Below are positions 1-15,562 of a DNA stretch of 39,816 nucleotides, piece by piece (within the stretch, counting starts at the first letter, position 1; every line of letters starts with the position of its first letter). The notes under the pieces are model-generated. The model searched no databases, was not told the origin of the DNA, and saw only the letters and a list, made by a program, of their open reading frames with translations. The position numbers were made by a program, and so were the translations under genes. This stretch comes from a virus (taxonomy: Duplodnaviria > Heunggongvirae > Uroviricota > Caudoviricetes), in IMG/VR virus record IMGVR_UViG_2541047807_000001, positions 1 to 39,816 of that record. The stretch is one strand, 5' to 3'.

Positions 1-461
1 GTTTTTGTCCTGCTCTCCCTCTCTTGGTTAAATGACTGGTTATATGACTGGTTCTGGATCCCGTTTTTGGGATCATTCAACATCCCGTTTTTGGGATCAT
101 TCAACATCCCGTTTTTGGGTATATTCCCGTTTTCGGTAACATTACCGTTTTCGGGTTCATTACCCCCTTCCCGGTCGCCTTTAATGTTCCCGTTTTTGGT
201 TATATTAAGAGAGAAAACCCGCACTCTTTTCGTCGCTCCCTTTCTCTCTCCGGTATCTGAAATAAGCCCCATTTTCATGAGCGATATAAGTCCGGCCTGC
301 ACGGTTTTTTTATTCAGGCAAGTGTCTTTAACGAGGCGTTCTATGCTGGGGTAGCAGAGGTTATATTCATCGGCTCTGTCAGCCATCGAGAGCAGTATGA
401 GCTTTAATGACGAGCTACCTGGATCTGTCTCCCAGGCCCAATCTGTTGCATGTCTGCTCAT
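1..461 (-). CDS. Replication initiator, lambda O-like, N-terminal part (continues as 39367..39816 across the circular junction)
   Basis: Minus-strand frame from ATG at 461..459 reads MSRHATDWAWETDPGSSSLKLILLSMADRADEYNLCYPSIERLVKDTCLNKKTVQAGLISLMKMGLIS, a winged-HTH typical of phage replisome organizers. It then runs through iteron-encoded PKNGMLND repeats and joins in frame with the ORF 39367..39804. Two stops (474-479) separate it from the upstream ORF. Confidence 0.75.
   Translation of the reverse strand, partial: MSRHATDWAWETDPGSSSLKLILLSMADRADEYNLCYPSIERLVKDTCLNKKTVQAGLISLMKMGLISDTGERKGATKRVRVFSLNITKNGNIKGDREGGNEPENGNVTENGNIPKNGMLNDPKNGMLNDPKNGIQNQSYNQSFNQERESRTK
60..205. repeat. Origin-like iterons (CCCGTTTT(T/C)GG core, about 6 copies, including an exact 24-bp tandem duplication) inside the O-like gene
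   Basis: cccgtttttgggatcattcaacat occurs twice in tandem (60-107), followed by further cccgttttcgg / ccgttttcggg / cccgtttttgg copies at 18-24 bp spacing. Location inside the initiator gene matches lambdoid ori architecture. Confidence 0.6.
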
Positions 462-1212: not shown

Positions 1213-1797
1213 ATGAAAAGTATCCAGGACGTCCGCAGGCAAAATCTCAACGACTTGATCGACCGTGAATTCAATGGTGTTCAGACGCGGATGGCAGAAA
1301 AACTTGGAACTCAGGCAAATCTGGTAAACCGCTGGGCTCTTGGCAAGAAGGTTATCGGCGACCAGGTTGCGCGAAAAATTGAAGCTGCCGCCAATAAACC
1401 CCGTAACTGGCTTGATATTGATCGTTCGCTTTCTCAGGAGGGTTTTCAGCCTGTCGGCCCGAGCGATATAGGTCAGCTGGCGGCTCACAACCTGGAACGC
1501 TGGATGAGCGAAAGCCGCGACCTTTCAACACAGGGAAAACTTCACCGCGCATCCGGCGTCGCCCAGGTGACAATCAGCCGTCTGTTAAACAATGAGGTCA
1601 GCGTTTCCATTTCCACCCTGGAGAATGTTGCATCCGCATTCGGGCGTCACGGATATGAATTACTGATTCACCCGCACGACCCCGCGACTATCAACTATGA
1701 CCGCTCGCGCTACGCATTGTTACCTGAAACAGAGAAGGCAAAGATCGAAAGTTACATTGAATTTGTCATCAACCAGAACGAAAAAAGCAAACAATAA
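1213..1797 (+). CDS. CI-like immunity repressor with tandem HTH domains and no S24 peptidase domain
   Basis: N-terminal XRE-type HTH (QTRMAEKLGTQANLVNRW) and a second HTH (ASGVAQVTISRLLNNEVSVSISTLENVASAFG). No Ser/Lys autocleavage domain recognisable. Divergent from the Cro-like gene. Confidence 0.65.
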   Translation: MKSIQDVRRQNLNDLIDREFNGVQTRMAEKLGTQANLVNRWALGKKVIGDQVARKIEAAANKPRNWLDIDRSLSQEGFQPVGPSDIGQLAAHNLERWMSESRDLSTQGKLHRASGVAQVTISRLLNNEVSVSISTLENVASAFGRHGYELLIHPHDPATINYDRSRYALLPETEKAKIESYIEFVINQNEKSKQ

Positions 1798-1817
1798 AAC
1801 TATAGTTTTCAGCAAGT

Positions 1818-1842
1818 AAGCCGCCTTCTGGCGGCTTTTTTA
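1818..1842 (+). terminator. Rho-independent terminator after the repressor gene
   Basis: aagccgcc-ttct-ggcggctt hairpin followed by a T-run. Confidence 0.6.
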
Positions 1843-1854
1843 TTGCCAGACAGA

Positions 1855-1930
1855 TTACCTTATGGGTAATTTTTTTAACTCATATCTATTGACATCAAAC
1901 CAGATACGCATAATTATTACCTCAACGGTA
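1855..1930. promoter_or_regulatory. OL-like operator pair upstream of the plus-strand early operon
   Basis: TTACCttatgGGTAA (1855-1869) and TTACCtcaacGGTAA (1916-1930), followed by RBS gaggtg and the first early ORF. Confidence 0.55.
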
Positions 1931-1949
1931 ACAGACCGAGGTGACAAGT

Positions 1950-2102
1950 TATGCAGTGGAAAATCATCAACGGTTGGTACTGCGTTACTGCATGCGGATT
2001 CATGAGCTGGAAGTTCCGCACCTTACAGGAAGGCATTAAGTGGGCTTTCGTCAGCAAAGAAGCTCGCGATGTAGCCAACGATAACGAGATATGGGAGGGC
2101 TG
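1950..2102 (+). CDS. Small hypothetical protein, first gene of the early-left operon
   Basis: 50-codon ORF (MQWKIINGWYCVTACGF...) directly downstream of the operators with an RBS-like gaggtg. Below the ORF-track size cutoff. Confidence 0.3.
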
Positions 2103-2105
2103 ATA

Positions 2106-2405
2106 ATGAACGTTAATCAGCAGAAAAATCTTCAAAAAATCATGCTGGCATTCGACAAGGACTACCGCCTGTCAGAACAGCTATATGACCGACAAGTTGA
2201 ACTGATTGAGAGTATCCGGCTTCATCAACTGGCATCAACTTTCGACGCTGTAACAGTTAAAGGCGTTCGCCAGGAAGTACTGGAGGCCGCTAAAGACAGT
2301 CCAGAGTTCGAAGAACTGATGGATTCCTACCGGCGCGAGGCAATGGCAATTATCGCCCGCTGGGATCTGGCTGATCAGCTTGATGGGCAGAGGGACGCGG
2401 CATGA
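2106..2405 (+). CDS. Hypothetical protein
   Basis: ORF with RBS gggaggg 8 nt before ATG 2106; translationally coupled to the next gene. Confidence 0.5.
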   Translation: MNVNQQKNLQKIMLAFDKDYRLSEQLYDRQVELIESIRLHQLASTFDAVTVKGVRQEVLEAAKDSPEFEELMDSYRREAMAIIARWDLADQLDGQRDAA

Positions 2406-2608
2406 AACCAACACTCCTCTCATTGCTGCGAGGTGGAAAACACAGCATCCGAGATATGGCAAAGATTCTTGGTATCTCAAGATCGAAGGTTTCTTGGTTC
2501 ATCGCTGAGCTTGAACGTCGCAAATGGGTAGAGGTAACCAGGAGCGCAATATATTTCCACGATGGAACCAGATCCAACAAGCAGAACGAATACAAGGTTA
2601 AGTTATGA
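2402..2608 (+). CDS. Small HTH DNA-binding protein
   Basis: HTH-like segment IRDMAKILGISRSKVSWFIAELERRKW; start overlaps the stop of the upstream gene. Confidence 0.5.
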   Translation: MKPTLLSLLRGGKHSIRDMAKILGISRSKVSWFIAELERRKWVEVTRSAIYFHDGTRSNKQNEYKVKL

Positions 2609-3426
2609 ATACTGGCATCTATTTCGACATCAGCAATGAGGACTACCACGCCGGTGACGGCGTGAGTAAGTCGCAACTAGACATGGTTGCCAAGAATCCG
2701 GCGCTTCTTAAATGGGTTCAGGCAGCACCAGAAGACGAAGAGAAAAAGTCTGCACTGGATATGGGAACCGCATTGCACTGTCTGCTTCTGGAGCCTGGAG
2801 AATTCAACAAACGCTTCATTGTTTCACCGAAATTCGATCGTCGGACGAAACAAGGTAAAGCTGACGAAGAAGCATTTCTTCGTGATGTAGCGGATATGGG
2901 GATTACGGTACTTGATGCCGAGCAGTGGCGGAAACTGGAGCTGATGCGTGATAGCGCAATGGCTCACCCGGCGGCACGCTGGATGCTGGAAGCACCTGGT
3001 TACTGCGAAGCATCAATGTACTGGAATGATGAAGAGACTGGTGAGTTGTGCCGCATTCGTCCAGACAAATGGCTGAACGAGCACAACGTGATCGTCGACG
3101 TGAAAAAGGTTGCAGATATGGACCGTTTTGCACGCCACATCGAGGAATTCCGCTACCACGTGCAGGACGCAATGTACCGCGAAGGAGCGATGAGGGTTAC
3201 TGGTCAGTCGCATGGTTTTTTCTTTCTTGCCGTGAGCGAAAGCATTGATTGTGGTCGGTATCCGGTACGCGTGTTCGAGCTGGATGCGCCGGATGTCGAT
3301 GCCGGGCACGCCCTGTTCCGCCGGGATCTGAATACCTATCACGAATGCCGCATCAATGATGAATGGGGCGGCGTGGAAATTATTAAACGCCCTGACTGGG
3401 CACGTAAACAGGATATGTACGTATGA
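2605..3426 (+). CDS. PD-(D/E)XK exonuclease (YqaJ / lambda Exo-like recombination exonuclease)
   Basis: RPD...VIVDVKK motif (PD-x12-DVK), size about 270 aa, immediately upstream of and coupled to a RecT-like gene. Confidence 0.6.
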   Translation: MNTGIYFDISNEDYHAGDGVSKSQLDMVAKNPALLKWVQAAPEDEEKKSALDMGTALHCLLLEPGEFNKRFIVSPKFDRRTKQGKADEEAFLRDVADMGITVLDAEQWRKLELMRDSAMAHPAARWMLEAPGYCEASMYWNDEETGELCRIRPDKWLNEHNVIVDVKKVADMDRFARHIEEFRYHVQDAMYREGAMRVTGQSHGFFFLAVSESIDCGRYPVRVFELDAPDVDAGHALFRRDLNTYHECRINDEWGGVEIIKRPDWARKQDMYV

Positions 3427-4304
3427 GCAATGATATCGCAATCACATCACAACCAGGCGCAACTGTAGGTACTGCTGCGGCAATCTTCAGCCCGGAGGGC
3501 ATGAATCAACTGGTGCGTTTCGCGGAGTTGATGTCACAAAGCAAAGCGACTGTACCGAAACATCTTGAAGGCAAACCTGCCGATTGTCTGGCGGTGACCA
3601 TGCAGGCGGCACAGTGGGGAATGAACCCTTTCGCCGTGGCGCAGAAAACGCATATGGTAAACGGAACGTTAGGCTACGAAGCACAGTTGGTAAACGCGGT
3701 CGTATCCTCTTCCAGCCTGCTAGCGACACGCCTGAATTATCGCTGGAGCGGTGACTGGTCGAATGTTAACGGCAAAACAGATAAATCACCGAATCTGACG
3801 GTAACTGTGTCAGCAGTTCTTAAAGGAGAAGCAGAACCCCGTGAGCTTACCATCAGTATGGCGCAAGCCGGAGTGCGTAACTCTCCATTGTGGGAACAGG
3901 ATCCGCGCCAGCAGCTTGCCTATCTTTGCACGAAACGATGGGCTCGCCTGCACGCTCCTGATGTACTTCTCGGTGTTTACACCCCTGACGAATTACAGGA
4001 AACGGCACCGCGCGTTGAGCGAGACATTACTCCGCAAACGACTACTGCTGCGGGAATGAACAGTCTGATCAACGCTAAACCAGTGAAAAAGCCTGATGAG
4101 CAAACGCGTAAAGCGGATAGCCGTGATCCAGAAGAAATGCTGATGGCCTTTACCAGCGCAGCGATGAATTACAGCACTGTCTCCGAACTGGATAAGGCTT
4201 ACAAATACATTGCACAAAAACTTTCAGATGATGACGAACTGCTGGCAAAAGCCACCGACGTTTACAGCGTTCGTCGGGAAGAATTAAACGAAACATCTAT
4301 GTAA
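3423..4304 (+). CDS. RecT-family single-strand annealing protein
   Basis: Conserved RecT-like core (PADCLAVTMQAAQWGMNPF ... NGTLGYEAQLVNAVV); paired with the upstream exonuclease. Confidence 0.7.
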   Translation: MSNDIAITSQPGATVGTAAAIFSPEGMNQLVRFAELMSQSKATVPKHLEGKPADCLAVTMQAAQWGMNPFAVAQKTHMVNGTLGYEAQLVNAVVSSSSLLATRLNYRWSGDWSNVNGKTDKSPNLTVTVSAVLKGEAEPRELTISMAQAGVRNSPLWEQDPRQQLAYLCTKRWARLHAPDVLLGVYTPDELQETAPRVERDITPQTTTAAGMNSLINAKPVKKPDEQTRKADSRDPEEMLMAFTSAAMNYSTVSELDKAYKYIAQKLSDDDELLAKATDVYSVRREELNETSM

Positions 4305-4353
4305 CCACCACCGCGGCGCCACGCGCGCCGCACTGCAACCAAGAGAGGTATTT

Positions 4354-4602
4354 ATGAAAGGTGCATTAGGTAAGAAGGAACTCCTGGCGGTGGTGCCACT
4401 GTCATGGAGCACTATCGACCGTATGGAGCGCGCAGGGGAATTTCCTAAACGCTGGTATATCACTGACAAACGCTGCGCATGGAACCGTGACGAAGTTGAG
4501 CGTTGGCTTGATGAACGTCAGGCAGCAAGCCCGGCAGAGTTCCAGGGTAAAAAGCCTCCTGTTCAGCAACGTGTATATCGTCCTGTGAGCAACGCTGCAT
4601 GA
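4354..4602 (+). CDS. AlpA-family excisionase / transcriptional regulator
   Basis: ELLAVVPLSWSTIDRMERAGEFPKRWYITDKRCAWNRDEVERWL matches the AlpA/Xis HTH pattern. Confidence 0.65.
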   Translation: MKGALGKKELLAVVPLSWSTIDRMERAGEFPKRWYITDKRCAWNRDEVERWLDERQAASPAEFQGKKPPVQQRVYRPVSNAA

Positions 4603-4711
4603 GTGCGCTGCTAAGGCACTGGAGCAAATGGTCAGGATGGTACTTATTCCTGGCCTCTGTTTCAGCATGGCTTTATCTGCTGGCATTAATTTTCAGAGAG
4701 GGTTGGATTAA

Positions 4712-5011
4712 GTGAGAAAGTTAAGCCGACTTGAAAAATATCACATGAACAAGGTTTCAATGCGCCGTCCTTCAAAGGTTATCGCCGTTACTCCTGCGGC
4801 GATAGAGTTCGAAAAACGCGCGATTGAAAGAGAGAAAAAAGGGCAGTTCCGCATTGCCGCTCACCTTTGGCTTCAGTGTATGGATGTTGCTTCTGGTGAT
4901 GTTGAACGTGCAAGGATCGCGGTTCGCAGGGACCAATGTATCACAAAAGGTAACGGCCTTCGCCGTGGCGACTATAGCGGCATAGGATGTTGTGGGGTGG
5001 TTTATGACTAA
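4712..5011 (+). CDS. Hypothetical protein (start uncertain)
   Basis: ORF only; GTG at 4712 or ATG at 4745. Confidence 0.3.
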   Translation: MRKLSRLEKYHMNKVSMRRPSKVIAVTPAAIEFEKRAIEREKKGQFRIAAHLWLQCMDVASGDVERARIAVRRDQCITKGNGLRRGDYSGIGCCGVVYD

Positions 5012-5654
5012 GAAATACACACTAATCTATGCAGATTCACCCTGGGTATACCGGGACAAAGCCGCAGATGGTAATCGCGGTGTCGGTTTTAAATATCCGG
5101 TTATGAGTGTGCTGGATATCTGCCGCCTTCCTGTGTGGGATTTGGCCGATGAAAACTGTCTGTTGGCCATATGGTGGGTGCCAACACAACCACTCGAAGC
5201 ACTAAAAGTTGTTGAAGCCTGGGGATTCCGTCTGATGACCATGAAGGGCTTCACGTGGATAAAATGTGGTAGTCGACAACCAGATAAACTGGTTATGGGT
5301 ATGGGACACATGACTCGCGCCAATAGTGAAGATTGCCTGTTTGCGGTAAAGGGAAAACTACCTCCGCGCATTAATGCAGGTATCGTTCAGTCATTTACCG
5401 CACCGCGGCTTGAGCATTCAAGAAAACCAGATGTCGTTCGTGAAAAACTTGTGCAATTGTTAGGCGATGTTTCTCGCATTGAACTGTTCGCCCGCCAGTC
5501 GTCTCATGGCTTCGATGTTTGGGGTAATCAGTGCGAAGACCCGGCAGTGCAACTACACCCTGGATACGCGTTGGATATTGGCGGATTAACAAATGCATTC
5601 AGCAATGCTCCGCTGTCACTAACAGACAACCAGGGGCGGGAGCGTGCTGCATGA
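5004..5654 (+). CDS. Phage Dam-like / MT-A70 family DNA N6-adenine methyltransferase
   Basis: IYADSPW (DPPW-like catalytic motif) near the N-terminus and conserved C-terminal IELFARQSSHGFDVWGNQ. RBS ggggtgg before ATG 5004. Confidence 0.7.
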   Translation: MTKKYTLIYADSPWVYRDKAADGNRGVGFKYPVMSVLDICRLPVWDLADENCLLAIWWVPTQPLEALKVVEAWGFRLMTMKGFTWIKCGSRQPDKLVMGMGHMTRANSEDCLFAVKGKLPPRINAGIVQSFTAPRLEHSRKPDVVREKLVQLLGDVSRIELFARQSSHGFDVWGNQCEDPAVQLHPGYALDIGGLTNAFSNAPLSLTDNQGRERAA

Positions 5655-5845
5655 ACAGGGCATCACCAGCAGATTTAAGAAAATGCCTTGAAACTGCAAA
5701 CATGCTTGCACACAGCGGGATCAGGTTTGTTCCAATTCCCGCTGTCACTGATGCTGAATTTGCAACACTGTCAGCAATATTCGAAAACAAAATTGAATCA
5801 CTGGCAGCAGAAGCAGAGATGGAAGAAAATCAGCAGAACTATTAA
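5651..5845 (+). CDS. Small hypothetical protein
   Basis: 64-codon ORF, start coupled to the methyltransferase stop; convergent with the integrase. Confidence 0.4.
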   Translation: MNRASPADLRKCLETANMLAHSGIRFVPIPAVTDAEFATLSAIFENKIESLAAEAEMEENQQNY

Positions 5846-5848
5846 ACG

Positions 5849-7099
5849 TTATTCCCCCGCCATCCACTTCTCAAACTTCGACGGGGAGAACGGAATCAGA
5901 TCCGTATGCTCCCCGTTAATCCAGGAATCAATCATATCGGCCCACTGCTGCAACATGTAGGCGCGCTGTCTGGCGTATTCCGCTTTGTTATATACGGCGC
6001 GCACACCTTTCTGCTCATGTGCCAGAGCCTTTTCAATCCAGTCTGAAGGATAACCAGCCTCATGCAACAACGTACTGGCTGTACGGCGCATATCGTGTAC
6101 GGTGAAGCCCTGAATATGCTCACCATCTTCATTTATTATTTTCACCGTTCTGTCGATCAGAGAGTTCAGCGCGGCATTAGATAATGGCTTCCGGAAATTG
6201 TAACGACCAGGAACCAGATATTCACTTCCACCAGCGCACATCTGCAACCCAACCAATATATCCTGTGCCTGTTTAGGCAGGTAAATAACGTGCGCCCGGC
6301 TTCCCTTCATGCGGTCTGAAGGAATTGTCCATGTCCATTTTTTAAAATCTATTTCATCCCACGTTGCATTGGTGAATTCGCCTTTACGAACCATAGTGAT
6401 AAGCACCAGCTTTAAAGCCATTTTCATAGTGCCCATAGCACCAATGGCATCCAGCGTGCGGAAGAACAGGCCAATTTCTTCTGGTGTCAGTGTTCGCTCT
6501 CGTGGTTTAAATATGGCGATAGACGAAGGTTTAATGTCAGCCGCAGGATTAAACAAACCATGACCACGGTCATTGGCGTGACGGTATACGCTGCTGATGA
6601 TCTCCCTGGCCTGTACTGCTGTTGCCCGACCACCGCGTTCGACAATCCGGTCACACAAATCACGAACCATCGATGTGGTAATTTCAGCCATCATTTTGTT
6701 GCCAAGAACCGGAAGTATGTCACGGTCGATCACCGCCTGCTTCATTGCGCGGGTACTGTCAGCCAGGATGACGTGTTTCATATAACTGTCGGTATGTACC
6801 GCAAACGTCTCGGCACCACGAATCTTTTTGATACCGTCACGTTTAGCCGCAGCCGGCGACTGGCCTGCTTTAAGCAGCTTCTTTGCAGCAATCAGTTCTT
6901 CTCGCGCTTCTGCCAGGCTGATACCGTCACGCCCATACTGCCCGATTACCAGTGTTTCGCGGCGACCGTTGATACGGTAGTCATAGCGAAACGAGACCGT
7001 GCCTGACGTAAGCACAGCTACATACAGCCCGTCACGATCGGAGACCTTGTACAGTTTGTCCTGCGGCTTGAGGTTTTTTAATTTTGTATCGGTAAGCAC
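5849..7099 (-). CDS. Tyrosine recombinase, phage integrase (P4-type with N-terminal arm-binding domain)
   Basis: 416 aa. N-terminal LTDTKLKNLKPQDKLYKVSDRDGLYVAV (arm-binding type) and C-terminal catalytic region with HDMRRTASTLL and a conserved Tyr. Confidence 0.85.
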   Translation of the reverse strand: MLTDTKLKNLKPQDKLYKVSDRDGLYVAVLTSGTVSFRYDYRINGRRETLVIGQYGRDGISLAEAREELIAAKKLLKAGQSPAAAKRDGIKKIRGAETFAVHTDSYMKHVILADSTRAMKQAVIDRDILPVLGNKMMAEITTSMVRDLCDRIVERGGRATAVQAREIISSVYRHANDRGHGLFNPAADIKPSSIAIFKPRERTLTPEEIGLFFRTLDAIGAMGTMKMALKLVLITMVRKGEFTNATWDEIDFKKWTWTIPSDRMKGSRAHVIYLPKQAQDILVGLQMCAGGSEYLVPGRYNFRKPLSNAALNSLIDRTVKIINEDGEHIQGFTVHDMRRTASTLLHEAGYPSDWIEKALAHEQKGVRAVYNKAEYARQRAYMLQQWADMIDSWINGEHTDLIPFSPSKFEKWMAGE

Positions 7100-7243: not shown

Positions 7244-7416
7244 TTGAGTTGGCATCTGAATAGGAATGATTTGCTATGAGTTAGCTGTTAATCATTCCCA
7301 CTCAATTATTTACGACATGCATAACCAATTGACTGATAACAACTTTCTGCAACCTGATTTTCACCGTACCGTTTTATATACCGTCACCGGAAATCAGTAC
7401 CATGAAAAATGCCATG

Positions 7417-7899
7417 CTATCTGGTCAGGGTGTCGTACTGTTTTTCACAGACTCTTCCGGCTTCGGCTGCCCGGTCAGCATACTCTGCCAGTTGTCTGTT
7501 TCTCTCGAGAGATTTGCTGAGCACGTTGGCAAGCAAAACTCCGGTGTCTGCGGCTGACGTCCCAGCGCCGATAATGGCGTTATACTGCCTGAGCTGCTCA
7601 CGGATGGCAACGAGCTGTTGCTGCAACCGGCCAGCGCGAGCGGCAGCATCAAGAGCATCATTGCGCGCCTGGTCGATCCTCTGCTGCGCTTTGCGTTCAT
7701 TGATCGCTTTCTCCTGTTCGTAGTGCTGACGAACTTTCTCATCTTCGGCTTTTCGCTCTTCCTTCGCCTGCGCATACCCGGCGTCGTACTGACGACTGCC
7801 GTGTGCATTCCAGGCTACAACTCCTGATATGACCAGAACAGCAAGCATCGCCATGATAACCAACTGTTTCCAGTATGCTTTTGCGAATGCCCAGATCAT
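7417..7899 (-). CDS. Rz-like i-spanin
   Basis: N-terminal TM helix ([18 protein letters not shown]) followed by a charged coiled-coil region; last gene of the lysis cassette. Confidence 0.6.
7425..7661 (-). CDS. Rz1-like o-spanin (lipoprotein) embedded in the +1 frame of Rz
   Basis: Alternate-frame ORF reads [13 protein letters not shown] with lipobox LAGC, followed by a Pro/Ser-rich sequence, entirely inside the Rz gene. Confidence 0.5.
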   Translation of the reverse strand: MMLLMLPLALAGCSNSSLPSVSSSGSITPLSALGRQPQTPEFCLPTCSANLSRETDNWQSMLTGQPKPEESVKNSTTP

Positions 7900-8525
7900 A
7901 CCGCCAGCACCTTACTGGCAGTGATGTATCGCGCGCGCCGGTCATCAATGCCGTTCCGGCCACCATTGATAAGCAGAGTTACACGTGCAATATCTCCGGT
8001 ATACTTCATGCAGCCTTTGCTGGAGAAGAACCAGGCCGCGCTACGAGCCGCGTATTCGTCCTGTGCCAGCAGTTCAGGATTCTCCAGCAGGTCAACTTTC
8101 AGACCGTTTCCGCAGTCACGATAGTTATTCAAACCGGTAATCTGGATAAGCCCGCGCCCACGGTAATTCCAGCCATCGCCGGGAGCATTGTTACCCATGC
8201 GTTTGCTGTATACCAGATTTGCAATCGCGCGCTGGCGCTCAAGTGGCAATGGTGGTTCACCAACGCGGCGCCCCAGTGCATTAGCCTGTCCCTGGGTGAG
8301 GCGTCCAGTCCGGACAAAGCTTGCCAGTCCGGTAACGCTGTAGTTGAAATTCTCCTGCAACCTGGTGAACCCCCCAGACTCATGCCCAACTTGAGCAATA
8401 AACATTGCCTGATCTTCTGCTTTGCTGATACCAAACTCTTTCATCGCAGAAGTTATATGCGAGAACCAGCGAGCGGCCAGCGCCTCGCTAATACCAGCAG
8501 CTCGCTGGAATTGTTTAATCTCCAT
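7896..8525 (-). CDS. Endolysin, glycoside hydrolase family 19 (chitinase-like lysozyme)
   Basis: [12 protein letters not shown] ... [23 protein letters not shown] are GH19-type endolysin signatures. Confidence 0.75.
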
Positions 8526-8823
8526 GTTTAGACCTCGTTATTTTGAAAATCTGAACGACGTTACCGCGCGTTTTAATAACCGCAGCAAGCATGACAGCGT
8601 TGATAATGACTTCAGATAAATCCACAGCCATTGGCGTGCGTAACCAGATTGCATAGACGACACGAACTGGAATACTGGCTGCAGCAACAATCAGGAAATA
8701 AGCAAGCCACCCCCCCCATCTTCGGTGTTGTGAACCGTTACGCCGGAAAGTGACAACGCGAATTGCTATGCCAGTACAAATAACTGCATTGGTGATAAGC
8801 AAAAAAAACTCATGCGTTACCAT
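8515..8823 (-). CDS. Holin-like small membrane protein
   Basis: 102 aa with hydrophobic segments, directly upstream of the endolysin. Confidence 0.45.
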
Positions 8824-9226
8824 CGTCTTTTCTCCCCGGAATTAACTCGCGTGGGTTATCGGAACGGTGATAGAGCCAGATGCCAATTCGTACTGCGACG
8901 ATTGCTGACACAAATGCGCCAGCAGAGAAAACAATCCCTTTCTCGAAAGAGTCCTGCGTGATGGTAGGTATCAGGCTGGCTATGCCGATAAGAATTGATG
9001 CTGCTGGTTTGTAGAAAAGAAGTCCGCAGAGAAAACTAAGCATCGACAAGAGTACGCGACGACGAATTGGGTGCTCTACCGCAGAGGTAACAAAAATTAC
9101 CGCGCCAGCCAAAGCTCCCAAAGCAACCTCAGGAGGCACTCCTGCTATCACCGCCGCCAGAGAACTCATGCTAAGCCACTGATTTAATGTTTCACTGGTT
9201 AGTTGAGCTGACATATTTTCCACCAT
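8810..9226 (-). CDS. Holin-like membrane protein
   Basis: 138 aa with multiple predicted TM helices; first gene of the lysis cassette. Confidence 0.45.
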   Translation of the reverse strand: MVENMSAQLTSETLNQWLSMSSLAAVIAGVPPEVALGALAGAVIFVTSAVEHPIRRRVLLSMLSFLCGLLFYKPAASILIGIASLIPTITQDSFEKGIVFSAGAFVSAIVAVRIGIWLYHRSDNPRELIPGRKDDGNA

Positions 9227-9435
9227 TTATATGCATAACGACCCCCTAAATAGTAAAGCACCATGCATGATAAACCATTTATGGTTTTTTGTTACCCTAG
9301 CATCGTAAATCCCCTGCCTTTGATGTCGATAATAAGGCTCGCCTTTTACATAACTCTGAAGAGATTGCAGTACAGAAATTATTTAAAATATAGAGGCTTA
9401 GTTGAATTCCGCGCCATCAAATGGCGCGGTAGCAG

Positions 9436-9720
9436 TCAAATATAGAAATAAACACCAAAACAAACAGTAACAGGAACAACAAAGTCAAACAGGCTTCCAA
9501 CATCCCATACGCGCGGATCAAAACCTCCCCACCACGGCATATTCATACGCTTGCCATGCCCGAACATTTCAATCCAGCGATATTCTGCCTGGGTGTGTTC
9601 ACGCGCAATGAAGAACGTACAACCAGCTATCGCTCCGTAAGCCCAGTTTCCGGTAAAAAGGCCAATCAGTACCTGCGCAGCCACAGCACAAAACGCATGA
9701 AGGAAAGGTGTTATATCCAT
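9436..9720 (-). CDS. Small multi-pass membrane protein (function unknown)
   Basis: Strong RBS AAGGAG 5 nt before ATG 9720; 94 aa with about 3 hydrophobic helices; sits between tailspike and lysis genes. Confidence 0.45.
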   Translation of the reverse strand: MDITPFLHAFCAVAAQVLIGLFTGNWAYGAIAGCTFFIAREHTQAEYRWIEMFGHGKRMNMPWWGGFDPRVWDVGSLFDFVVPVTVCFGVYFYI

Positions 9721-9754
9721 TATCGCTCCTTTAACATAAGGATAAATAAACACT

Positions 9755-12070
9755 TCATAAAATAGATTTCGTCTTTGTAACAATAATATCTACAAAATCA
9801 CCTGTAGATATAGCTGATGGTACTGTATCTGCAAGAGTAATCTTTTCTGAAGAGATGTTTTGCACATCTAATAATTTATTTTCAACCCCATCCGTATATA
9901 CCAATTTGACATCACTGAATGGAGGGTAATAAGTGACTGTTCCTTGGTATACATATATTTCACTGCCTGAAATTGATTTCACTACATACCTGCCCCTTAC
10001 AAGATTAATTTTGAGTTCAGATAAATCGGTTTTATAACAGGTAATTCCTGAACCAATGTTAGCCATACTAATATCAGTATCACTATAATAAGTAATTGCT
10101 TTTCCTTGTTTTAAGGTGAAGTTATCTTTGCTTTTCCTTGGCAAGGATGTGCTATTTTTGTAATATCTACCAGTTAAGCATAGCCATGAAAATGCAGTAT
10201 TCGCTACATTACCACCAGAATACACAGCTAAACGAATTGCACTAACTGGAACCCCTTCATTATTAATCCTGATCTTAATGGAAGAAATGTTAGCAACAGT
10301 AGCATATCTATGGTTAGATGAATCCCATTGCATAGAAGAAGTTATTGCTTCTGTTTGTGAAGTTATGACATTCCCATCTCCATCTAATGCATACAGGTAA
10401 ATGCGAAACGATGCCGTATCTGCTGAGAATGTAAACATATCACCATTTCTTACTGGTACATCTCCAGATTCCCATAACAACCCAAAATTCCGCATAAAAG
10501 CAAACTTAGAAGAAACTAGGTGACGGATATTATATAAACCATCTACATCTGTTTGATATGCTAATACACCAACTTCTCCATTGTTGGCACTGGATATAAA
10601 TGGGGTGTTAGCATTTAAAGAAAACAATGTTACTTCATCGGATATATTTTCCTGAACATGAAATACTGCATTCCCCTTGCCATTATCAGTTACCTCTACA
10701 TAAGTGTAAGGTGATGGATTGTATGGTTCATTTGTATAGTAAGGAGAACTTAACCATGAAGCCTCAATTGAGTTATTCCACGTATATTCACCAAAGTTAA
10801 TTATCAACTGTTGGTTAGTTGGGGATGATGGATATCGTTCAAAACGAAACCCGTAGAAGTAATTGTTATCACCTCTTTGAATATCAATTTTACCTGCCCC
10901 CTCCATAGTTCCACCATAAAACTTATTGTGGTTATGATGATATGGATTATCAGCGAAAATGATATTATTCGTACGATTCAGATAAAAATAGTTTTCATTT
11001 ATCCATCCGTTCTCAACTCCAAGAAAATGAATTGTATCGACCTTTTTCAGGTTAAAGGTTGAGTATGCTATTGAATAATCCGTCGATGCCACCGAAGCAT
11101 TATAATTTGCATATAACTGTAAGTAGTCGCAACGCTCAATGTTAATATGCTGCCCTTTTGCCCCGATAATACGAATATCCGGTGTCGTTTCAGATGAAAT
11201 ACCAGAATTTCTGATAATCGTTCCGAAGTTTTGTCTTGGGTTGTTAGGGTTTGATGCATTCCCGCCAAGCAATACCCCTATTCCTGAGTGGGATATGGTA
11301 AAAACAGCATTGGTCATTTCGAGGCTGACATTACGAAGATTTAATGTCTCCGTAATAATAAAATTACCTTCCGCTCGTAATGTTCTGGATGATTCTCGTG
11401 CATATTCTGCAGCCAGGATCAATGCAGATGTATCATCTGTTATACCATCGCCTTTTGCCCCAAAATCGCGAACACTAACGGTGTCTCTCATCTTATCCTG
11501 GAACGTTCGGTATACTGCTCCAGAACCATACTGAATAAACCAACCAAAACCACCAACAACCCCGGCGATTGCAGCATCGACATAATTACGCATTGAGCGA
11601 TTATTTACAGCGTCCTGCTCAAGTGATGGATCTGCAAGGTTAGAAATTTTGTTTTGCTTTGCATCGTAATATTTTGCAAGCAAAGATGGTTTCATCAATG
11701 CACGTCTGAACCACCCAAAACATTGCTGGATCAGCATCGTCAGGTAGTCAAAAGCATCTTCATGCACTTCGGGGAAAAATTTTCCCTGATTGCGAAGATC
11801 TGTCTCCTGCACTACATCAAGCACACGATCTATCGTAATTCGCCAGCCAGCAGCAAGCGGAGACGGCAGAACCACTGAACCGCCACTATAAGTGCCCGCC
11901 CCAGTTACCGTATAACCGGTATCCAGAACCAATTCTGTTACGTTCCCGTTCAGGTCAGACACCTGAACAACCAGGTCTGATTTTCTGAAAATTCGAAAAG
12001 TATACGGAAACGATGTCGTAACGCCGTTACCTGTGTATTCGTTGTGGTCAACTTCGGTTGAGACCGTCAT
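9755..12070 (-). CDS. Tailspike / receptor-binding protein with T7 gp17-like N-terminal adaptor and pectate-lyase-like beta-helix
   Basis: N-terminus MTVSTEVDHNEYTGNGVTTSFPYTFRIF is tail-fiber-adaptor-like; VRDFGAKGDGITDDT is a beta-helix depolymerase signature. The gene is visibly AT-rich versus its neighbours. Confidence 0.8.
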   Translation of the reverse strand: MTVSTEVDHNEYTGNGVTTSFPYTFRIFRKSDLVVQVSDLNGNVTELVLDTGYTVTGAGTYSGGSVVLPSPLAAGWRITIDRVLDVVQETDLRNQGKFFPEVHEDAFDYLTMLIQQCFGWFRRALMKPSLLAKYYDAKQNKISNLADPSLEQDAVNNRSMRNYVDAAIAGVVGGFGWFIQYGSGAVYRTFQDKMRDTVSVRDFGAKGDGITDDTSALILAAEYARESSRTLRAEGNFIITETLNLRNVSLEMTNAVFTISHSGIGVLLGGNASNPNNPRQNFGTIIRNSGISSETTPDIRIIGAKGQHINIERCDYLQLYANYNASVASTDYSIAYSTFNLKKVDTIHFLGVENGWINENYFYLNRTNNIIFADNPYHHNHNKFYGGTMEGAGKIDIQRGDNNYFYGFRFERYPSSPTNQQLIINFGEYTWNNSIEASWLSSPYYTNEPYNPSPYTYVEVTDNGKGNAVFHVQENISDEVTLFSLNANTPFISSANNGEVGVLAYQTDVDGLYNIRHLVSSKFAFMRNFGLLWESGDVPVRNGDMFTFSADTASFRIYLYALDGDGNVITSQTEAITSSMQWDSSNHRYATVANISSIKIRINNEGVPVSAIRLAVYSGGNVANTAFSWLCLTGRYYKNSTSLPRKSKDNFTLKQGKAITYYSDTDISMANIGSGITCYKTDLSELKINLVRGRYVVKSISGSEIYVYQGTVTYYPPFSDVKLVYTDGVENKLLDVQNISSEKITLADTVPSAISTGDFVDIIVTKTKSIL

Positions 12071-12175
12071 GTTAAATCTCCAGATAGTCGCAGCACCCGT
12101 TGCGCCGCATATCTGGTTATTCTATTACCCATAAAACCATATATGGATAGAAAGACTGTGAATATGAATAGATAT

Positions 12176-12190
12176 TACCTTTCAGGTAAT
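12176..12190. promoter_or_regulatory. Repressor operator-type site TTACCtttcaGGTAA
   Basis: Perfect TTACC-N5-GGTAA palindrome upstream of the antirepressor-like gene. Confidence 0.5.
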
Positions 12191-12228
12191 TTGCAAAACG
12201 TGCTGGATAGCAAACAAATTATTTGCTA

Positions 12229-12244
12229 CTGTATAAATATACAG
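12229..12244. promoter_or_regulatory. LexA (SOS) box
   Basis: CTGTATAAATATACAG matches the CTGT-N8-ACAG LexA consensus, about 20 nt upstream of the ORF start. Confidence 0.65.
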
Positions 12245-12266
12245 TTATTGCATGGAGAAGATTAAG

Positions 12267-12524
12267 ATGCAGCAGTATCACTATCCACTGGAAGACGGAT
12301 TTACCGAAAGGATTCACACGCCGGGAGGCGTCAGGTCACTGGTGGAGGGATCGCACTTGATGAAATTACTCCGGGATCTCGATAAGGATGGATTTAATGT
12401 CGATGGCCCACTTGCCGAACTGACTGCACTGATTAACTACGTCACCAGCTCACAGATGTCTATGCAGGATCTGCAAACACATCTCGACTATTGTGCCGAA
12501 CAATTACGAAAGCAAACCAGATAA
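12267..12524 (+). CDS. Small antirepressor-like protein (stand-alone paralogue of the antirepressor C-terminal domain)
   Basis: HLMKLLRDLDKDGFNVDGPLAELTALINYVTSSQMSMQDLQTH parallels LLMNLLNQLQEDGHDVSGAAAELTTMFCYIVGVSKCLRDIQTH in the downstream antirepressor. Preceded by the LexA box. Confidence 0.5.
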   Translation: MQQYHYPLEDGFTERIHTPGGVRSLVEGSHLMKLLRDLDKDGFNVDGPLAELTALINYVTSSQMSMQDLQTHLDYCAEQLRKQTR

Positions 12525-12555
12525 GGTTTGCAATTACCAAGTGGAGTGCTTATAT

Positions 12556-12570
12556 TTACCTTTGCGGTAA
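12556..12570. promoter_or_regulatory. Repressor operator-type site TTACCtttgcGGTAA
   Basis: Perfect TTACC-N5-GGTAA between the two antirepressor-like genes. Confidence 0.45.
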
Positions 12571-12663
12571 ATTTACATCGCACTCCTCTTGTGCCATAGT
12601 AATCAGGCACTGGCAAAATCCAGTGCCGGGATTGGCGTCCCGGGTTACTACAGAGGCACATAT

Positions 12664-12687
12664 GCCGCATAAGCGGTTTTTTTATGT
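12664..12687 (+). terminator. Rho-independent terminator
   Basis: ccgc-ataa-gcgg hairpin followed by a run of seven T. Confidence 0.5.
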
Positions 12688-12837
12688 GTAAAGCGCACCT
12701 ATTCTATGGTGGGCTGTGTGGGGGCACCGAAAGGTGCGCCGGGTCCTTTGTAGCCGGTTACGCCAACCCTGCACAGTTCACCACCAACCGATTGGCGTCG
12801 GTAGTGGTGATTAACCTAACTACAAAGGTGATCACTA

Positions 12838-13523
12838 TGACTGCTAACGTAACCCCATCTGTTTTTCATTTTGAATCAGAAGCAACCATTCGAGCCATTG
12901 TTATTGATGGAAATCCTTGGTTTGTTGCCAAAGACGTTATTAAAGCTCTTCAACTGACAAACCCCACTATGTCAATAAAATCTCTTGATGATGATGAAAG
13001 GGCTAAATTTAACTTAGGCCGTCAAGGCGAAACCAATATTATCAACGAGTCAGGCCTCTACACACTGATCCTCCGCTGCCGCGACGCAGTGACACCAGGC
13101 ACTATCCCCTACCGCTTTCGTAAATGGGTTACAGGTGAGGTTCTTCCTCAGATCCGCCGCACCGGAAGTTACATTAAAAACTCGCTCCCGCAGGAAGAAC
13201 GCATAAAGATGGTTGCCGACCAGGTAGCCAACGCCATAGCATCAGCAGTGATGCAGGCAATGAAGATAGAGAACAAAACCTACAGTGCCCCGCTGAAGCC
13301 CGGCTACCGCAGTCTGATTCATTCGCCGTCGGGTGTTCTCGGCCTGACGGAGAACTCACTGCTGATGAATCTGCTGAACCAGTTACAGGAAGACGGGCAT
13401 GACGTATCGGGCGCGGCGGCGGAGTTGACCACCATGTTCTGCTACATCGTCGGTGTGAGCAAATGCCTGCGTGATATCCAGACCCACGCGGAGTACATCA
13501 ACGACAAGGCAGGGTTCTTCTGA
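12838..13523 (+). CDS. Antirepressor (Bro-N / AntA-type N-terminal domain)
   Basis: FHFESEATIRAIVIDGNPWFVAKDVIKALQLTNP is a Bro-N/Ant signature. RBS aaggtga before ATG 12838; the longer ORF-track start at 12684 lies in the terminator T-run. Confidence 0.7.
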
Positions 13524-15121: not shown

Positions 15122-15562
15122 ATGATTAAGCCGATGCACGCTATTACAGCTACCGTTTTGTTTATCCTACCAATTTTTTCGTTTGCAAACGACATATGTT
15201 TTAAGAATTTAATAAATGAGGATATGTGTGCACATGCAAACAAAATCGCATCAGAAGCAGGAAAGTCACTTCCCATAAAATTGAATGATAATATGTCTAT
15301 TGTTTCAATAAATGCAATACTAAACAAACTTTTAGTTGTAGCGCATCTTAATTACAACAACAGCTATTTATCAAAAGTTTATAATGGTGATATAACCTTA
15401 GAAAATAAATTAAAGAGTGTGATGCGAAATTATTCAAAATCGAGCATTTGCTCCAACAGGCAAATGAAAGCATTTATTCACCTTGGCGGAGAGATTGAGT
15501 ATAGGTATGTATTTAGTGATGGCAATATATTTGATACATACGCCATCACTAATTGTGAATAG
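15122..15562 (+). CDS. Hypothetical periplasmic or exported protein (AT-rich accessory gene)
   Basis: N-terminal hydrophobic signal-like segment ITATVLFILPIFSFA, four Cys, low-GC composition. Confidence 0.5.
   Translation: MIKPMHAITATVLFILPIFSFANDICFKNLINEDMCAHANKIASEAGKSLPIKLNDNMSIVSINAILNKLLVVAHLNYNNSYLSKVYNGDITLENKLKSVMRNYSKSSICSNRQMKAFIHLGGEIEYRYVFSDGNIFDTYAITNCE

What the first reader, a model, noticed from the sequence alone, without database searches (positions are those of the whole stretch)
9436..12070. AT-rich tailspike with depolymerase-type beta-helix followed by a small membrane protein: host-range and possible surface-conversion module
The tailspike combines a conserved T7 gp17-like N-terminal adaptor with an AT-rich beta-helix body, the usual signature of receptor-specificity swapping. 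The adjacent 94-aa three-helix membrane protein with a strong RBS sits where temperate podoviruses sometimes encode O-antigen-modifying or exclusion factors.
Basis: partly seen in the sequence, partly recalled or inferred. Interest (0 to 1): 0.5.

Follow-up and report, generated by a model that had tools for sequence, protein, structure and literature searches.

The report
Swappable tailspike plus orphan membrane gene
This is the host-recognition end of a temperate E. coli phage: an ordinary modular tailspike with an imported, AT-rich sugar-cutting body, followed by a very common small membrane-protein gene of unknown function that sits where sister phages carry O-antigen-modifying genes but resembles none of them.

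Summary
On the minus strand, 9755..12070 encodes a 771-aa tailspike. It has a conserved ~205-aa epsilon15/phiV10-type anchor and a 36% GC body, the lowest-GC stretch of a 48% GC window. The body models as a parallel beta-helix like phage depolymerases. The same body, 91-99% identical as protein, is fused to three different anchors, and 34-45% relatives carry two more. This is textbook receptor-binding cassette swapping.

9436..9720 encodes a 94-aa three-helix membrane protein with a strong ribosome-binding site. In sister phages the slot between tailspike and holin holds an O-acetyltransferase or a Wzy-like polymerase, so the positional argument holds.

The small protein, however, matches no known conversion, holin, defence or exclusion family. 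It belongs to phrog_1443 (function unknown). It follows tail-fibre genes of at least 19 types in podo-, sipho- and myoviruses, and occurs in 35% of complete E. coli genomes. It is under purifying selection (dN/dS about 0.1). It is a pseudogene behind tail-fibre genes of two virulent phage lineages.

It is therefore not specific to this tailspike. My best guess is a temperate-phage accessory inner-membrane factor, possibly for exclusion, and this is unproven. The tailspike is ordinary; the small gene is a worthwhile experimental target.

The parts
9755..12070 (-). Tailspike / receptor-binding protein gene, 771 aa
   Evidence: ORF. Full-length match to phrog_18162 'tail fiber protein', 1263.5 bits. 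99.9% identical copy in the E. coli AST20 prophage.
11462..12070 (-). N-terminal virion anchor (residues 1 to about 203), conserved among epsilon15/phiV10-like (Uetakevirus-type) phages
   Evidence: PHROG N-terminal hits. PDB sequence hit to Dpo31/Dpo36 tailspikes over 1-179, E 3.9e-35. Homology to phiv142-3, TL-2011b and an epsilon15-like phage resumes at 11430 / 11724 / 11723. 45.8% GC. PF03906 only 16.2 bits.
10661..11482 (-). Right-handed parallel beta-helix of the receptor-binding body (approximately residues 197-470; boundaries taken from the model's strands)
   Evidence: AF2 pLDDT mostly above 90 here. Foldseek top hits are tailspike depolymerases, probability 1.0. 'DFGAKGDGxTDDT' start motif matches PF12708 at 198-221. 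Invariant E190/E221/E242 in body numbering.
9758..10660 (-). C-terminal beta-sandwich domains of the tailspike body (approximately residues 471-771)
   Evidence: All-beta, pLDDT mostly 80-95. Co-inherited with the helix in every anchor context.
9721..9754 (-). 34-nt intergenic spacer with Shine-Dalgarno AAGGAG at 9731..9726, 5 nt before the ATG
   Evidence: Sequence read. Homology to the lambdoid copies of the small gene starts at 9732, so the block covers the SD but no promoter.
9436..9720 (-). 94-aa three-helix inner-membrane protein, family phrog_1443 (function unknown)
   Evidence: phrog_1443 E 6.9e-55 over 1-94 of 97. AF2 pLDDT 94.8. 558 homologues, all 'hypothetical'. 443 clusters at 50% identity, all 60-150 aa. 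dN/dS 0.105.
9409..9429 (-). GC-rich 9-bp hairpin 6 nt after the small gene's stop codon, with no U tract
   Evidence: Fold -16.6 kcal/mol, z -3.7, 0 of 200 shuffles as good. Not called by the terminator scan.

Best explanation
This is the distal, exchangeable end of the late operon of a temperate epsilon15/phiV10-like E. coli podophage.

Tailspike: a conserved ~205-aa anchor docks it on the tail. The low-GC body, a parallel beta-helix plus C-terminal beta domains, is a horizontally acquired glycan-binding and probably glycan-cleaving receptor-binding cassette that sets host range.

Small gene: it is translationally independent (own SD) but transcriptionally dependent on the tailspike. It encodes a small inner-membrane protein of a large uncharacterised family. 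This gene travels at the 3' end of tail-fibre modules in many temperate phages. Its conserved DNA also acts as the downstream homology arm for cassette exchange.

Inferred function: it is an accessory, non-structural factor useful to temperate phages. It most likely acts at the cytoplasmic face of the inner membrane on a conserved host component, giving envelope-level protection such as superinfection exclusion. It is unlikely to be an O-antigen-specific converting enzyme.

Shown: the gene structure, mosaic boundaries, fold, synteny, selection and decay in virulent phages.
Inferred: the topology, the time of expression and the exclusion function.
For: Cassette:
- GC 36.2% against 48.5% for the rest of the window.
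- Breakpoints at 9718/11429 against phiv142-3 and 9481/11461 against P22-like prophages.
- The same body at 91-99% identity sits on epsilon15-type, Head_binding and Tail_spike_N anchors. It sits at 45% on a P2-type collar fibre in Aeromonas and at 33-35% in Pasteurellaceae.
- Beta-helix depolymerase fold.

Slot: O-acetyltransferase, acyltransferase or Wzy-like gene in sister phages.

Small protein:
- It lies 0-2 genes downstream of the receptor-binding gene in epsilon15-like, P22-like, lambdoid, GpJ-type and P2/HP1-like phages.
- 19 upstream body clusters in 80 IMG/VR loci.
- Present in 1904 of 5426 E. coli genomes.
- dN/dS 0.105.
- Pseudogenised directly behind intact tail-fibre genes in the virulent Kuttervirus KFSST3 and in HC6-type siphophages.
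- The body works without it in other contexts.
- K+R count is 5.3 in loop 40-73 against 0 in the TM1-TM2 turn.
- Invariant R40, E41 and W72, near-invariant H8, Q44, A45, E46 and P83.
Against: - No experiment bears on the small protein's function.
- It has no similarity to any known exclusion protein (PHROG and PADLOC).
- The conserved block begins 12 nt upstream of the ATG. In other phages its start overlaps or lies about 10 nt after the upstream late gene. It therefore looks late-transcribed rather than prophage-expressed, unlike classical morons.
- Intact divergent homologues exist away from tail-fibre genes in Aeromonas jumbo phages and phage 62AhydR11PP.
- In the closest studied relative, phiv142-3, orf5 was not among the serum-induced genes and was not tested.
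- The topology is only a positive-inside inference. The phage 21 annotators predicted two TM segments.
- The tailspike's receptor is unknown. The body occurs in O166, O99 and O17-family genomes.
Confidence: 0.5

Rival explanations
1. The 94-aa protein is a surface-conversion factor. It alters O-antigen, LPS or another Und-P-dependent glycan, for example by inhibiting a polymerase, chain-length regulator or initiating transferase. Lysogens or infected cells would then stop displaying the receptor.
For: It occupies exactly the slot that holds an O-acetyltransferase or Wzy-like gene in sister Uetakevirus-type phages. It also occupies the post-tailspike conversion position at the end of a P22-like prophage. 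No other conversion gene is present in the window. From memory, not tested here: there is precedent for very small membrane inhibitors of O-antigen polymerase (phage D3 Iap, epsilon15).
Against: No homology to GtrA/B, acyltransferase_3 or Wzy. The protein is over 80% identical behind at least 19 unrelated fibre bodies, including lambda-type Stf. It is present in an O99 host whose O-antigen is ABC-transporter dependent, so a Wzy inhibitor would be pointless there. The conserved motif is predicted to be cytoplasmic.
Confidence: 0.15
2. It is a small membrane-embedded enzyme, or a modulator of host physiology (a fitness moron), unrelated to phage resistance. It might, for example, act on a lipid or lipid carrier at the inner leaflet.
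For: The pattern of invariant polar residues looks like an active site: H8 in TM1, and R40-E41, Q44 and E46 at the membrane interface, conserved down to 30% identity. The family is very prevalent in E. coli genomes. Prophage phiv142-3 affects serum fitness.
Against: There is no fold or sequence relative among known enzymes. The protein is only 94 aa. No phenotype has been attached to it.
Confidence: 0.15
3. It is a late lytic-cycle protein tied to lysis, such as an antiholin or holin modulator, or a lysis-timing factor, because here it lies directly upstream of two holin genes in the same operon.
For: Position 9436..9720 lies immediately before the holins at 8810..9226 and 8515..8823. It has an SD but no promoter of its own. 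A similar position before small genes is seen in a Comamonas prophage.
Against: Profile comparison with both holins is negative: probability 0.9% and 0.2%. In P22-like, lambdoid and P2-like phages it is nowhere near the lysis genes. It decays in virulent phages that still lyse.
Confidence: 0.08
4. It is a tail-fibre maturation, assembly or virion component needed by the upstream receptor-binding protein.
For: Tight synteny and start/stop coupling with tail-fibre or tail-fibre-assembly genes.
Against: It is a polytopic membrane protein. The same tailspike body occurs without it. It is a pseudogene behind intact tail-fibre genes in virulent phages. It is indifferent to fibre type.
Confidence: 0.07

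Closest known systems
Tailspikes (RBPs) of Uetakeviruses: phiV10, epsilon15, TL-2011b, phiv142-3
   Same: Same ~205-aa N-terminal anchor. Same genome position, between the antirepressor region and the holin-endolysin-spanin cassette. Same anchor-plus-beta-helix architecture (PMC10408124).
   Different: The body differs from all named phages in the phage collection: no phage record covers more than 41% of the region. It is known only from prophages, in 15 of 5426 E. coli genomes. Its receptor is undefined and is not tied to one O serogroup.
P22-like (Lederbergvirus) tailspikes with the Head_binding domain, and Tail_spike_N (TSP1/Gp66-type) tailspikes
   Same: They carry the same receptor-binding body at 91-98% identity. 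This is the classical cross-genus exchange of receptor-binding domains.
   Different: The anchor domain is different. Only some of them also carry the small gene.
O-antigen conversion genes placed behind the RBP: Oac acyltransferases of TL-2011b/Sf6-type phages, and the epsilon15 Wzy-like polymerase
   Same: Same slot between RBP and holin, or at the prophage end. All are membrane proteins.
   Different: No sequence or domain similarity. 94 aa against 300-390 aa. It is not linked to a particular receptor type. The conserved face is predicted to be cytoplasmic.
Exclusion genes next to tail or receptor-binding genes: cor (phi80/N15/HK022), llp (T5), Z/fun in the P2 TO region; inner-membrane exclusion proteins SieA (P22) and Imm (T4). 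All recalled from general knowledge.
   Same: A small envelope protein encoded at the end of the tail-fibre module. In phiHAP-1 the homologue sits exactly between the tail-fibre assembly gene and the sheath gene, the P2 'TO' position.
   Different: No homology was detected to any annotated exclusion family. Cor and Llp are receptor-specific outer-membrane lipoproteins, whereas this protein is receptor-agnostic and sits in the inner membrane. Exclusion activity is untested.
phrog_1443 / phage 21 CPT_21_24 'putative membrane protein'
   Same: True family membership: E 6.9e-55 over the full length, 82% identity to the phage 21 protein.
   Different: Nothing is known about the family's function, so membership explains nothing mechanistically.

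Membership tests
Uetakevirus-type (epsilon15/phiV10) tailspike | Conserved N-terminal anchor (about the first 205 aa of the phiV10 RBP) | tested here: met
   PHROG tail families match residues 1-166..227, E 1e-97 to 1e-145. 75-94% nt identity to epsilon15-like, TL-2011b and phiv142-3 over 11430/11723..12524. The anchor definition comes from PMC10408124.
Uetakevirus-type (epsilon15/phiV10) tailspike | Right-handed parallel beta-helix receptor-binding body | tested here: met
   AF2 pLDDT 87. Foldseek top 26 hits at E<=1e-3 are almost all tailspike depolymerases, most with probability 0.99-1.0. Global TM is only 0.25-0.31.
Uetakevirus-type (epsilon15/phiV10) tailspike | Synteny: RBP followed by a variable slot, then two holins, GH19 endolysin and Rz, next to att/int | tested here: met
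Uetakevirus-type (epsilon15/phiV10) tailspike | Trimeric enzyme that cleaves or deacetylates a defined surface polysaccharide | not testable with these tools
   Only conserved acidic residues (E190/E221/E242 in body numbering) were seen. Host genomes carry O166, O99 or O17-family clusters.
T7 gp17 N-terminal domain (Pfam PF03906 Phage_T7_tail) | Score above the Pfam gathering threshold over the domain | tested here: inconclusive
   16.2 bits against a cut-off of 25.2, E 0.0086. Only profile positions 123-149 align, though in register. BLASTP against a recalled T7 gp17 sequence gives E 0.045 for the same motif.
O-antigen-modifying conversion proteins (Acyl_transf_3 Oac, Wzy/O-antigen ligase family, GtrA/GtrB) | Sequence or domain homology of the 94-aa protein to one of these families | tested here: not met
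   No Pfam hit for the protein, nor for 56 distant relatives at E<=1. tblastn of the TL-2011b Oac and the epsilon15-like Wzy against the window gave no hit better than E 0.37.
O-antigen-modifying conversion proteins | Genomic position directly behind the RBP gene of a temperate podophage | tested here: met
   The same slot holds Oac, acyltransferase or Wzy-like genes in TL-2011b, AST205 and VB_ST_E15. It is the last gene of a P22-like prophage.
Moron (independent transcription unit expressed from the prophage) | Own promoter upstream and terminator downstream | tested here: inconclusive
   The conserved block starts 12 nt before the ATG. No promoter-like site lies in the 34-nt spacer, and scan counts are at chance level. 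Starts overlap or abut the upstream late genes in other phages. A stable hairpin without a U tract follows the gene. Expression was not measured.
Holins / antiholins | Homology to a holin family | tested here: not met
   hhalign probability 0.9% and 0.2% against the two neighbouring holins. One of 56 relatives gave a chance-level PF16931 hit.
Known anti-phage defence or exclusion proteins | Match to PADLOC models or to an annotated PHROG exclusion family | tested here: not met
   No PADLOC hit at E<=0.1. The only PHROGs are 1443 and 34165, both 'unknown function'.
phrog_1443 (uncharacterised small phage membrane proteins) | Full-length profile match and the conserved H8...RE(H)xQAEYRW...MPWWGGF...W motif | tested here: met
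   E 6.9e-55, residues 1-94 of a 97-position profile. Motif conserved across 88 and 56 sequence sets.

The most novel reading that the evidence does not exclude
phrog_1443 could be a new class of very small (about 95 aa) inner-membrane effector. Temperate phages of many morphotypes would carry it as the last gene of their tail-fibre cassette. Through its invariant H/R-E/Q/E site at the cytoplasmic membrane face, it would inhibit or modify a conserved host envelope or DNA-entry component. That would give receptor-independent superinfection immunity, or envelope remodelling, in about a third of E. coli strains.
Probability: 0.3. Interest if true: 0.65.

Novelty: new member of a known kind. Interest (0 to 1): 0.4.

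Why it matters
The tailspike adds one more receptor-binding cassette to the known exchange network between Uetake-, Lederberg-, Kutter-like and P2-like phages. It is useful for host-range engineering. It is also a caution for serotype prediction, because the same body occurs in O166, O99 and O17-family hosts.

The small gene matters more. It is among the commonest prophage genes in E. coli: 35% of complete genomes, up to 7 copies. It is conserved from Escherichia to Aeromonas, Comamonas and Halomonas phages, and it is selected in temperate phages but decaying in virulent ones. It still has no name, domain or function. A simple knockout and expression study could reveal a new exclusion or envelope-modifying mechanism. 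It could also explain why tail-fibre cassettes are exchanged with this gene attached.

Tried and rejected
- Pfam, NCBIfam and PADLOC on the small protein, and Pfam on 56 distant relatives: nothing.
- PDB sequence profile search: nothing.
- An exhaustive profile search found only stand-alone proteins of 60-150 aa and no fusion to a known domain.
- The holin-paralogue idea was rejected by hhalign.
- A lipoprotein reading of 'IAGC' at residues 31-34 was rejected. There is no charged n-region, the 'signal' would be 33 aa long, and the cysteine is not conserved in the wider family.
- The hypothesis that the tailspike is specific for O166 was rejected. Three of 15 carriers are O166, an enrichment with p = 1.4e-5. 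However, E-1246 is O99 and PS_131_S11 is O17/O44/O73/O77/O106-family.
- A literature search for accession numbers or family ids of the small protein found no paper.
- The phiv142-3 study did not test orf5.
- The search for related loci with the most divergent alignment failed. The closer alignment returned only E. coli-type loci.
Full report
**What is there.** The finding lies on the minus strand. ORF 9755..12070 encodes a 771-aa protein. The 94-aa start is the right one for three reasons:
- RefSeq calls the same 285-nt gene in a 99.9% identical prophage of E. coli AST20.
- All homologues start at 'MD(I/L)(T/S)P'.
- AAGGAG lies at 9731..9726, 5 nt upstream of the ATG.

Downstream on the same strand come two holins (PF16931, PF05449), a GH19 endolysin and a DUF2514 Rz-type spanin. 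The attachment region follows near 7290, and a tyrosine integrase lies at 5849..7099. In integrated relatives the element sits between yfgI and guaA. The window is therefore a temperate epsilon15/phiV10-like (Uetakevirus-type) podophage genome.

**The tailspike.**
- The body 9755..11461 is 36.2% GC (GC3 27.6%).
- The anchor part is 45.8% and the rest of the window 48.5%.
- The body is the lowest-GC 1.7-kb stretch of the window, about 3.6 sd below the mean.

Residues 1 to about 205 are the conserved anchor of this phage group. A solved relative exists, the Dpo31/Dpo36 tailspikes, E 3.9e-35 over residues 1-179. The resemblance to the T7 gp17 N-terminal domain is only sub-threshold: PF03906 scores 16.2 bits against a cut-off of 25.2.

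An AF2 model of residues 170-771 has pLDDT 87 and is all-beta. Its best PDB matches are phage tailspike depolymerases with a parallel beta-helix: DpK2, Depo32, Det7, CBA120 TSP4, K2-2 TSP, Sf6, phiAB6 and HK620. Foldseek probability is about 1.0, but global TM is only 0.25-0.31, as expected for a monomer model of a multidomain trimer. 'Depolymerase-type beta-helix' is thus supported at the fold level. Catalysis is not shown.

**Cassette swapping is directly visible.**
- Against phiv142-3, homology runs 7290..9717 and 11430..12811. The replaced segment is 9718..11429.
- Against a P22-like prophage, homology is 9481..11461. This covers the body, the spacer and most of the small gene, fused there to a Head_binding domain.
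- The same body at 91-99% protein identity is found on three anchors: the epsilon15 type, P22 Head_binding and Tail_spike_N.
- A 45% identical body sits on a P2-type collar fibre in Aeromonas salmonicida, and 33-35% relatives occur in Pasteurellaceae.
- Only 15 of 5426 complete E. coli genomes carry the body. Two of them carry it twice, on two different prophage types.

This is the known pattern of RBP modularity (PMC10408124). One point departs from the usual expectation. The carriers are not one serogroup:
- Three are O166, an enrichment with p = 1.4e-5.
- E-1246 is O99, with an ABC-transporter-type O-antigen.
- PS_131_S11 is of the O17/O44/O73/O77/O106 family.

The receptor is therefore undefined. 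It may not be the O-antigen repeat itself.

**The slot.** In sister phages the segment between the RBP and the first holin holds one of the following:
- a 369-aa O-acetyltransferase (TL-2011b);
- a 303-aa acyltransferase (the AST205 prophage);
- a Wzy-like O-antigen-ligase-family protein (epsilon15-like VB_ST_E15).

In this window the slot holds only the 94-aa gene. No Oac or Wzy homologue and no large polytopic membrane ORF exists anywhere in the window.

**The small protein.** It matches phrog_1443 (function unknown) over its full length and nothing else:
- No Pfam, NCBIfam or PADLOC hit.
- No Pfam family for 56 relatives down to 30% identity.
- No PDB sequence relative.
- No meaningful structural neighbour in the PDB or BFVD.

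The AF2 model is very confident (pLDDT 94.8), with helices at 4-23, 26-53 and 74-93. The family has 558 word-index hits and 443 clusters at 50% identity. All members are stand-alone proteins, mostly 90-120 aa. They come from Escherichia, Shigella, Salmonella, Citrobacter, Enterobacter, Leclercia, Aeromonas, Comamonas and a Halomonas phage.

Across the divergent set, R40, E41 and W72 are invariant. H8, Q44, A45, E46 and P83 are nearly invariant. Together they form the motif H...(A/G)RE.xQAEYRW...MPW..GF.PR.W. The loop 40-73 carries on average 5.3 Lys+Arg, against about 0 in the TM1-TM2 turn. The positive-inside rule therefore places the conserved motif at the cytoplasmic face, with topology N-in and C-out. 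This is an inference; the phage 21 annotators predicted two TM segments.

**Context of the small gene.** It is the last gene of tail-fibre modules in very different phages:

| Phage type | Position of the small gene |
|---|---|
| epsilon15-like podophages | after the tailspike |
| P22-like prophages | after the tailspike, as the last prophage gene |
| Phage 21 and many lambdoid prophages | after Stf, a 93-aa protein and often a 234- or 346-aa S74-domain protein |
| GpJ-type siphoviruses | after GpJ and fibre genes |
| P2/HP1-like myoviruses of Aeromonas and Leclercia | after the collar or S74 fibre |
| phiHAP-1 | between the tail-fibre assembly gene and the sheath gene |

In 80 IMG/VR loci the upstream fibre bodies fall into 19 clusters, with at least four anchor types. 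The gene is present in 1904 of 5426 complete E. coli genomes, as 3731 copies, and is always annotated 'hypothetical protein'. Pairwise dN/dS among 51 distinct E. coli alleles has a median of 0.105, so it is a functional protein under purifying selection.

The conserved DNA block begins only 12 nt before the ATG. In other phages the start overlaps or abuts the preceding late gene. The gene therefore has its own SD but no conserved promoter. A stable hairpin without a U tract follows it.

**What it is not.**
- It is not needed by this tailspike body. The body occurs without the gene in some P22-like prophages and in a Tail_spike_N phage.
- It is not a holin paralogue.
- Two virulent lineages carry only decayed copies directly behind intact RBP genes. 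Kuttervirus KFSST3 has an in-frame stop and truncation. HC6-type siphophages have a frameshift plus a stop. Truncated family members are also catalogued as phrog_34165, and one appears as the only near-hit in the BFVD search.

This decay indicates that the gene hitch-hikes with RBP cassettes and is dispensable for a purely lytic life cycle. That argues against an assembly or lysis role and for a function useful to temperate phages or lysogens.

Caveats: intact divergent homologues exist away from RBP genes in Aeromonas jumbo phages and in phage 62AhydR11PP. The number of independent decay events is small.

**Most likely mechanism.** The cassette sets host range. The anchor docks on the tail, and the beta-helix binds and probably cleaves a surface glycan.

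The small gene is co-transcribed behind it and inserts into the inner membrane. I consider an envelope-level protective role most likely, meaning superinfection exclusion acting on a conserved host component at the cytoplasmic membrane face, at roughly 35-40% of the probability. A general glycan-pathway or conversion role and an unrelated small membrane enzyme each get about 15%. Lysis and assembly roles are below 10% each.

The gene's high nucleotide conservation (about 90% across lambdoid, P22-like and epsilon15-like phages) also makes it the downstream homology arm for cassette exchange. The observed breakpoints at 9717 and 9481 fit this.

**Comparison and novelty.** The tailspike is a new member of a well-known kind. 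The small protein belongs to a catalogued but uncharacterised family. It occupies the conversion/exclusion slot yet fails every homology test for known converters, holins and defence proteins. No paper mentions it by accession or family. In the only studied close relative, phiv142-3, the neighbouring tail-fibre gene orf6 was reported to affect serum growth, but orf5 was not examined.

Interest is moderate. Nothing here would surprise a specialist about the tailspike. The ubiquity, conservation and unknown role of the small gene make it a cheap and potentially rewarding experimental target.

Noticed in passing
window 7425..7808 (-), inside Rz 7417..7899: An out-of-frame ORF embedded in the Rz spanin gene carries a lipoprotein signal with the lipobox 'LALAGC'. 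It looks like an embedded Rz1 o-spanin.
   Followed up: no
window 12252..12524 (+) and 12684..13523 (+): A 90-aa ORF (phrog_450) duplicates the C-terminal domain of the neighbouring 279-aa Bro-N/Ant-like antirepressor, which matches phrog_450 and phrog_15539 over residues 196-279.
   Followed up: no
window 9409..9429 (-): A 9-bp GC-rich hairpin lies 6 nt after the small gene's stop codon: -16.6 kcal/mol, z -3.7, no U tract. It could be a terminator-like or RNA-stabilising element between the tail and lysis genes.
   Followed up: partly
E. coli AST20 (NZ_AP043617.1) and PS_131_S11 (NZ_CP145099.1): Each genome carries two copies of the same tailspike body. In PS_131_S11 one copy is in an epsilon15-type prophage and one in a P22-type prophage.
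   Followed up: partly
L103 (E-1246), L104 (PS_131_S11), L101 (JNE070796): The same tailspike body (97.7-99.4% nt identity to the window's) occurs in hosts with O99 (ABC-transporter type), O17/O44/O73/O77/O106-family and O166 O-antigen clusters. The receptor may not be the O-antigen repeat.
   Followed up: partly
L098 4001..4156 (Kuttervirus KFSST3); L099 3445..3605 (phage HC6): Decayed copies of the small membrane-protein gene lie in the intergenic space right after tailspike or fibre genes of virulent phages. They look like scars of receptor-binding cassette transfer from temperate phages.
   Followed up: yes
L024, L025, L035 and similar lambdoid prophage loci, positions about 1600..5290: A recurrent lambdoid fibre module: Stf (about 800 aa, phage_tail_N), then a 93-aa protein (phrog_1361, unknown), then a 234- or 346-aa protein with a Peptidase_S74 chaperone domain, then the small membrane protein.
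   Followed up: partly
L004 (Aeromonas salmonicida) 3377..6300: A P2-type collar fibre whose body is 45% identical to this tailspike body is followed, with a 4-nt overlap, by a 65% identical homologue of the small protein. The pair is thus conserved across genera and phage morphotypes.
   Followed up: partly
window 15122..15562 (+): A 146-aa ORF with two hydrophobic segments on the strand opposite the tail genes. It may be another accessory membrane protein.
   Followed up: no
L105 (AST205) 11226..11708: The Uetakevirus-like prophage between yfgI and guaA in AST205 is degraded. A truncated replication protein P abuts the tail-fibre gene and most structural genes are missing. It nonetheless keeps the tail fibre, the acyltransferase and the lysis cassette.
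   Followed up: no
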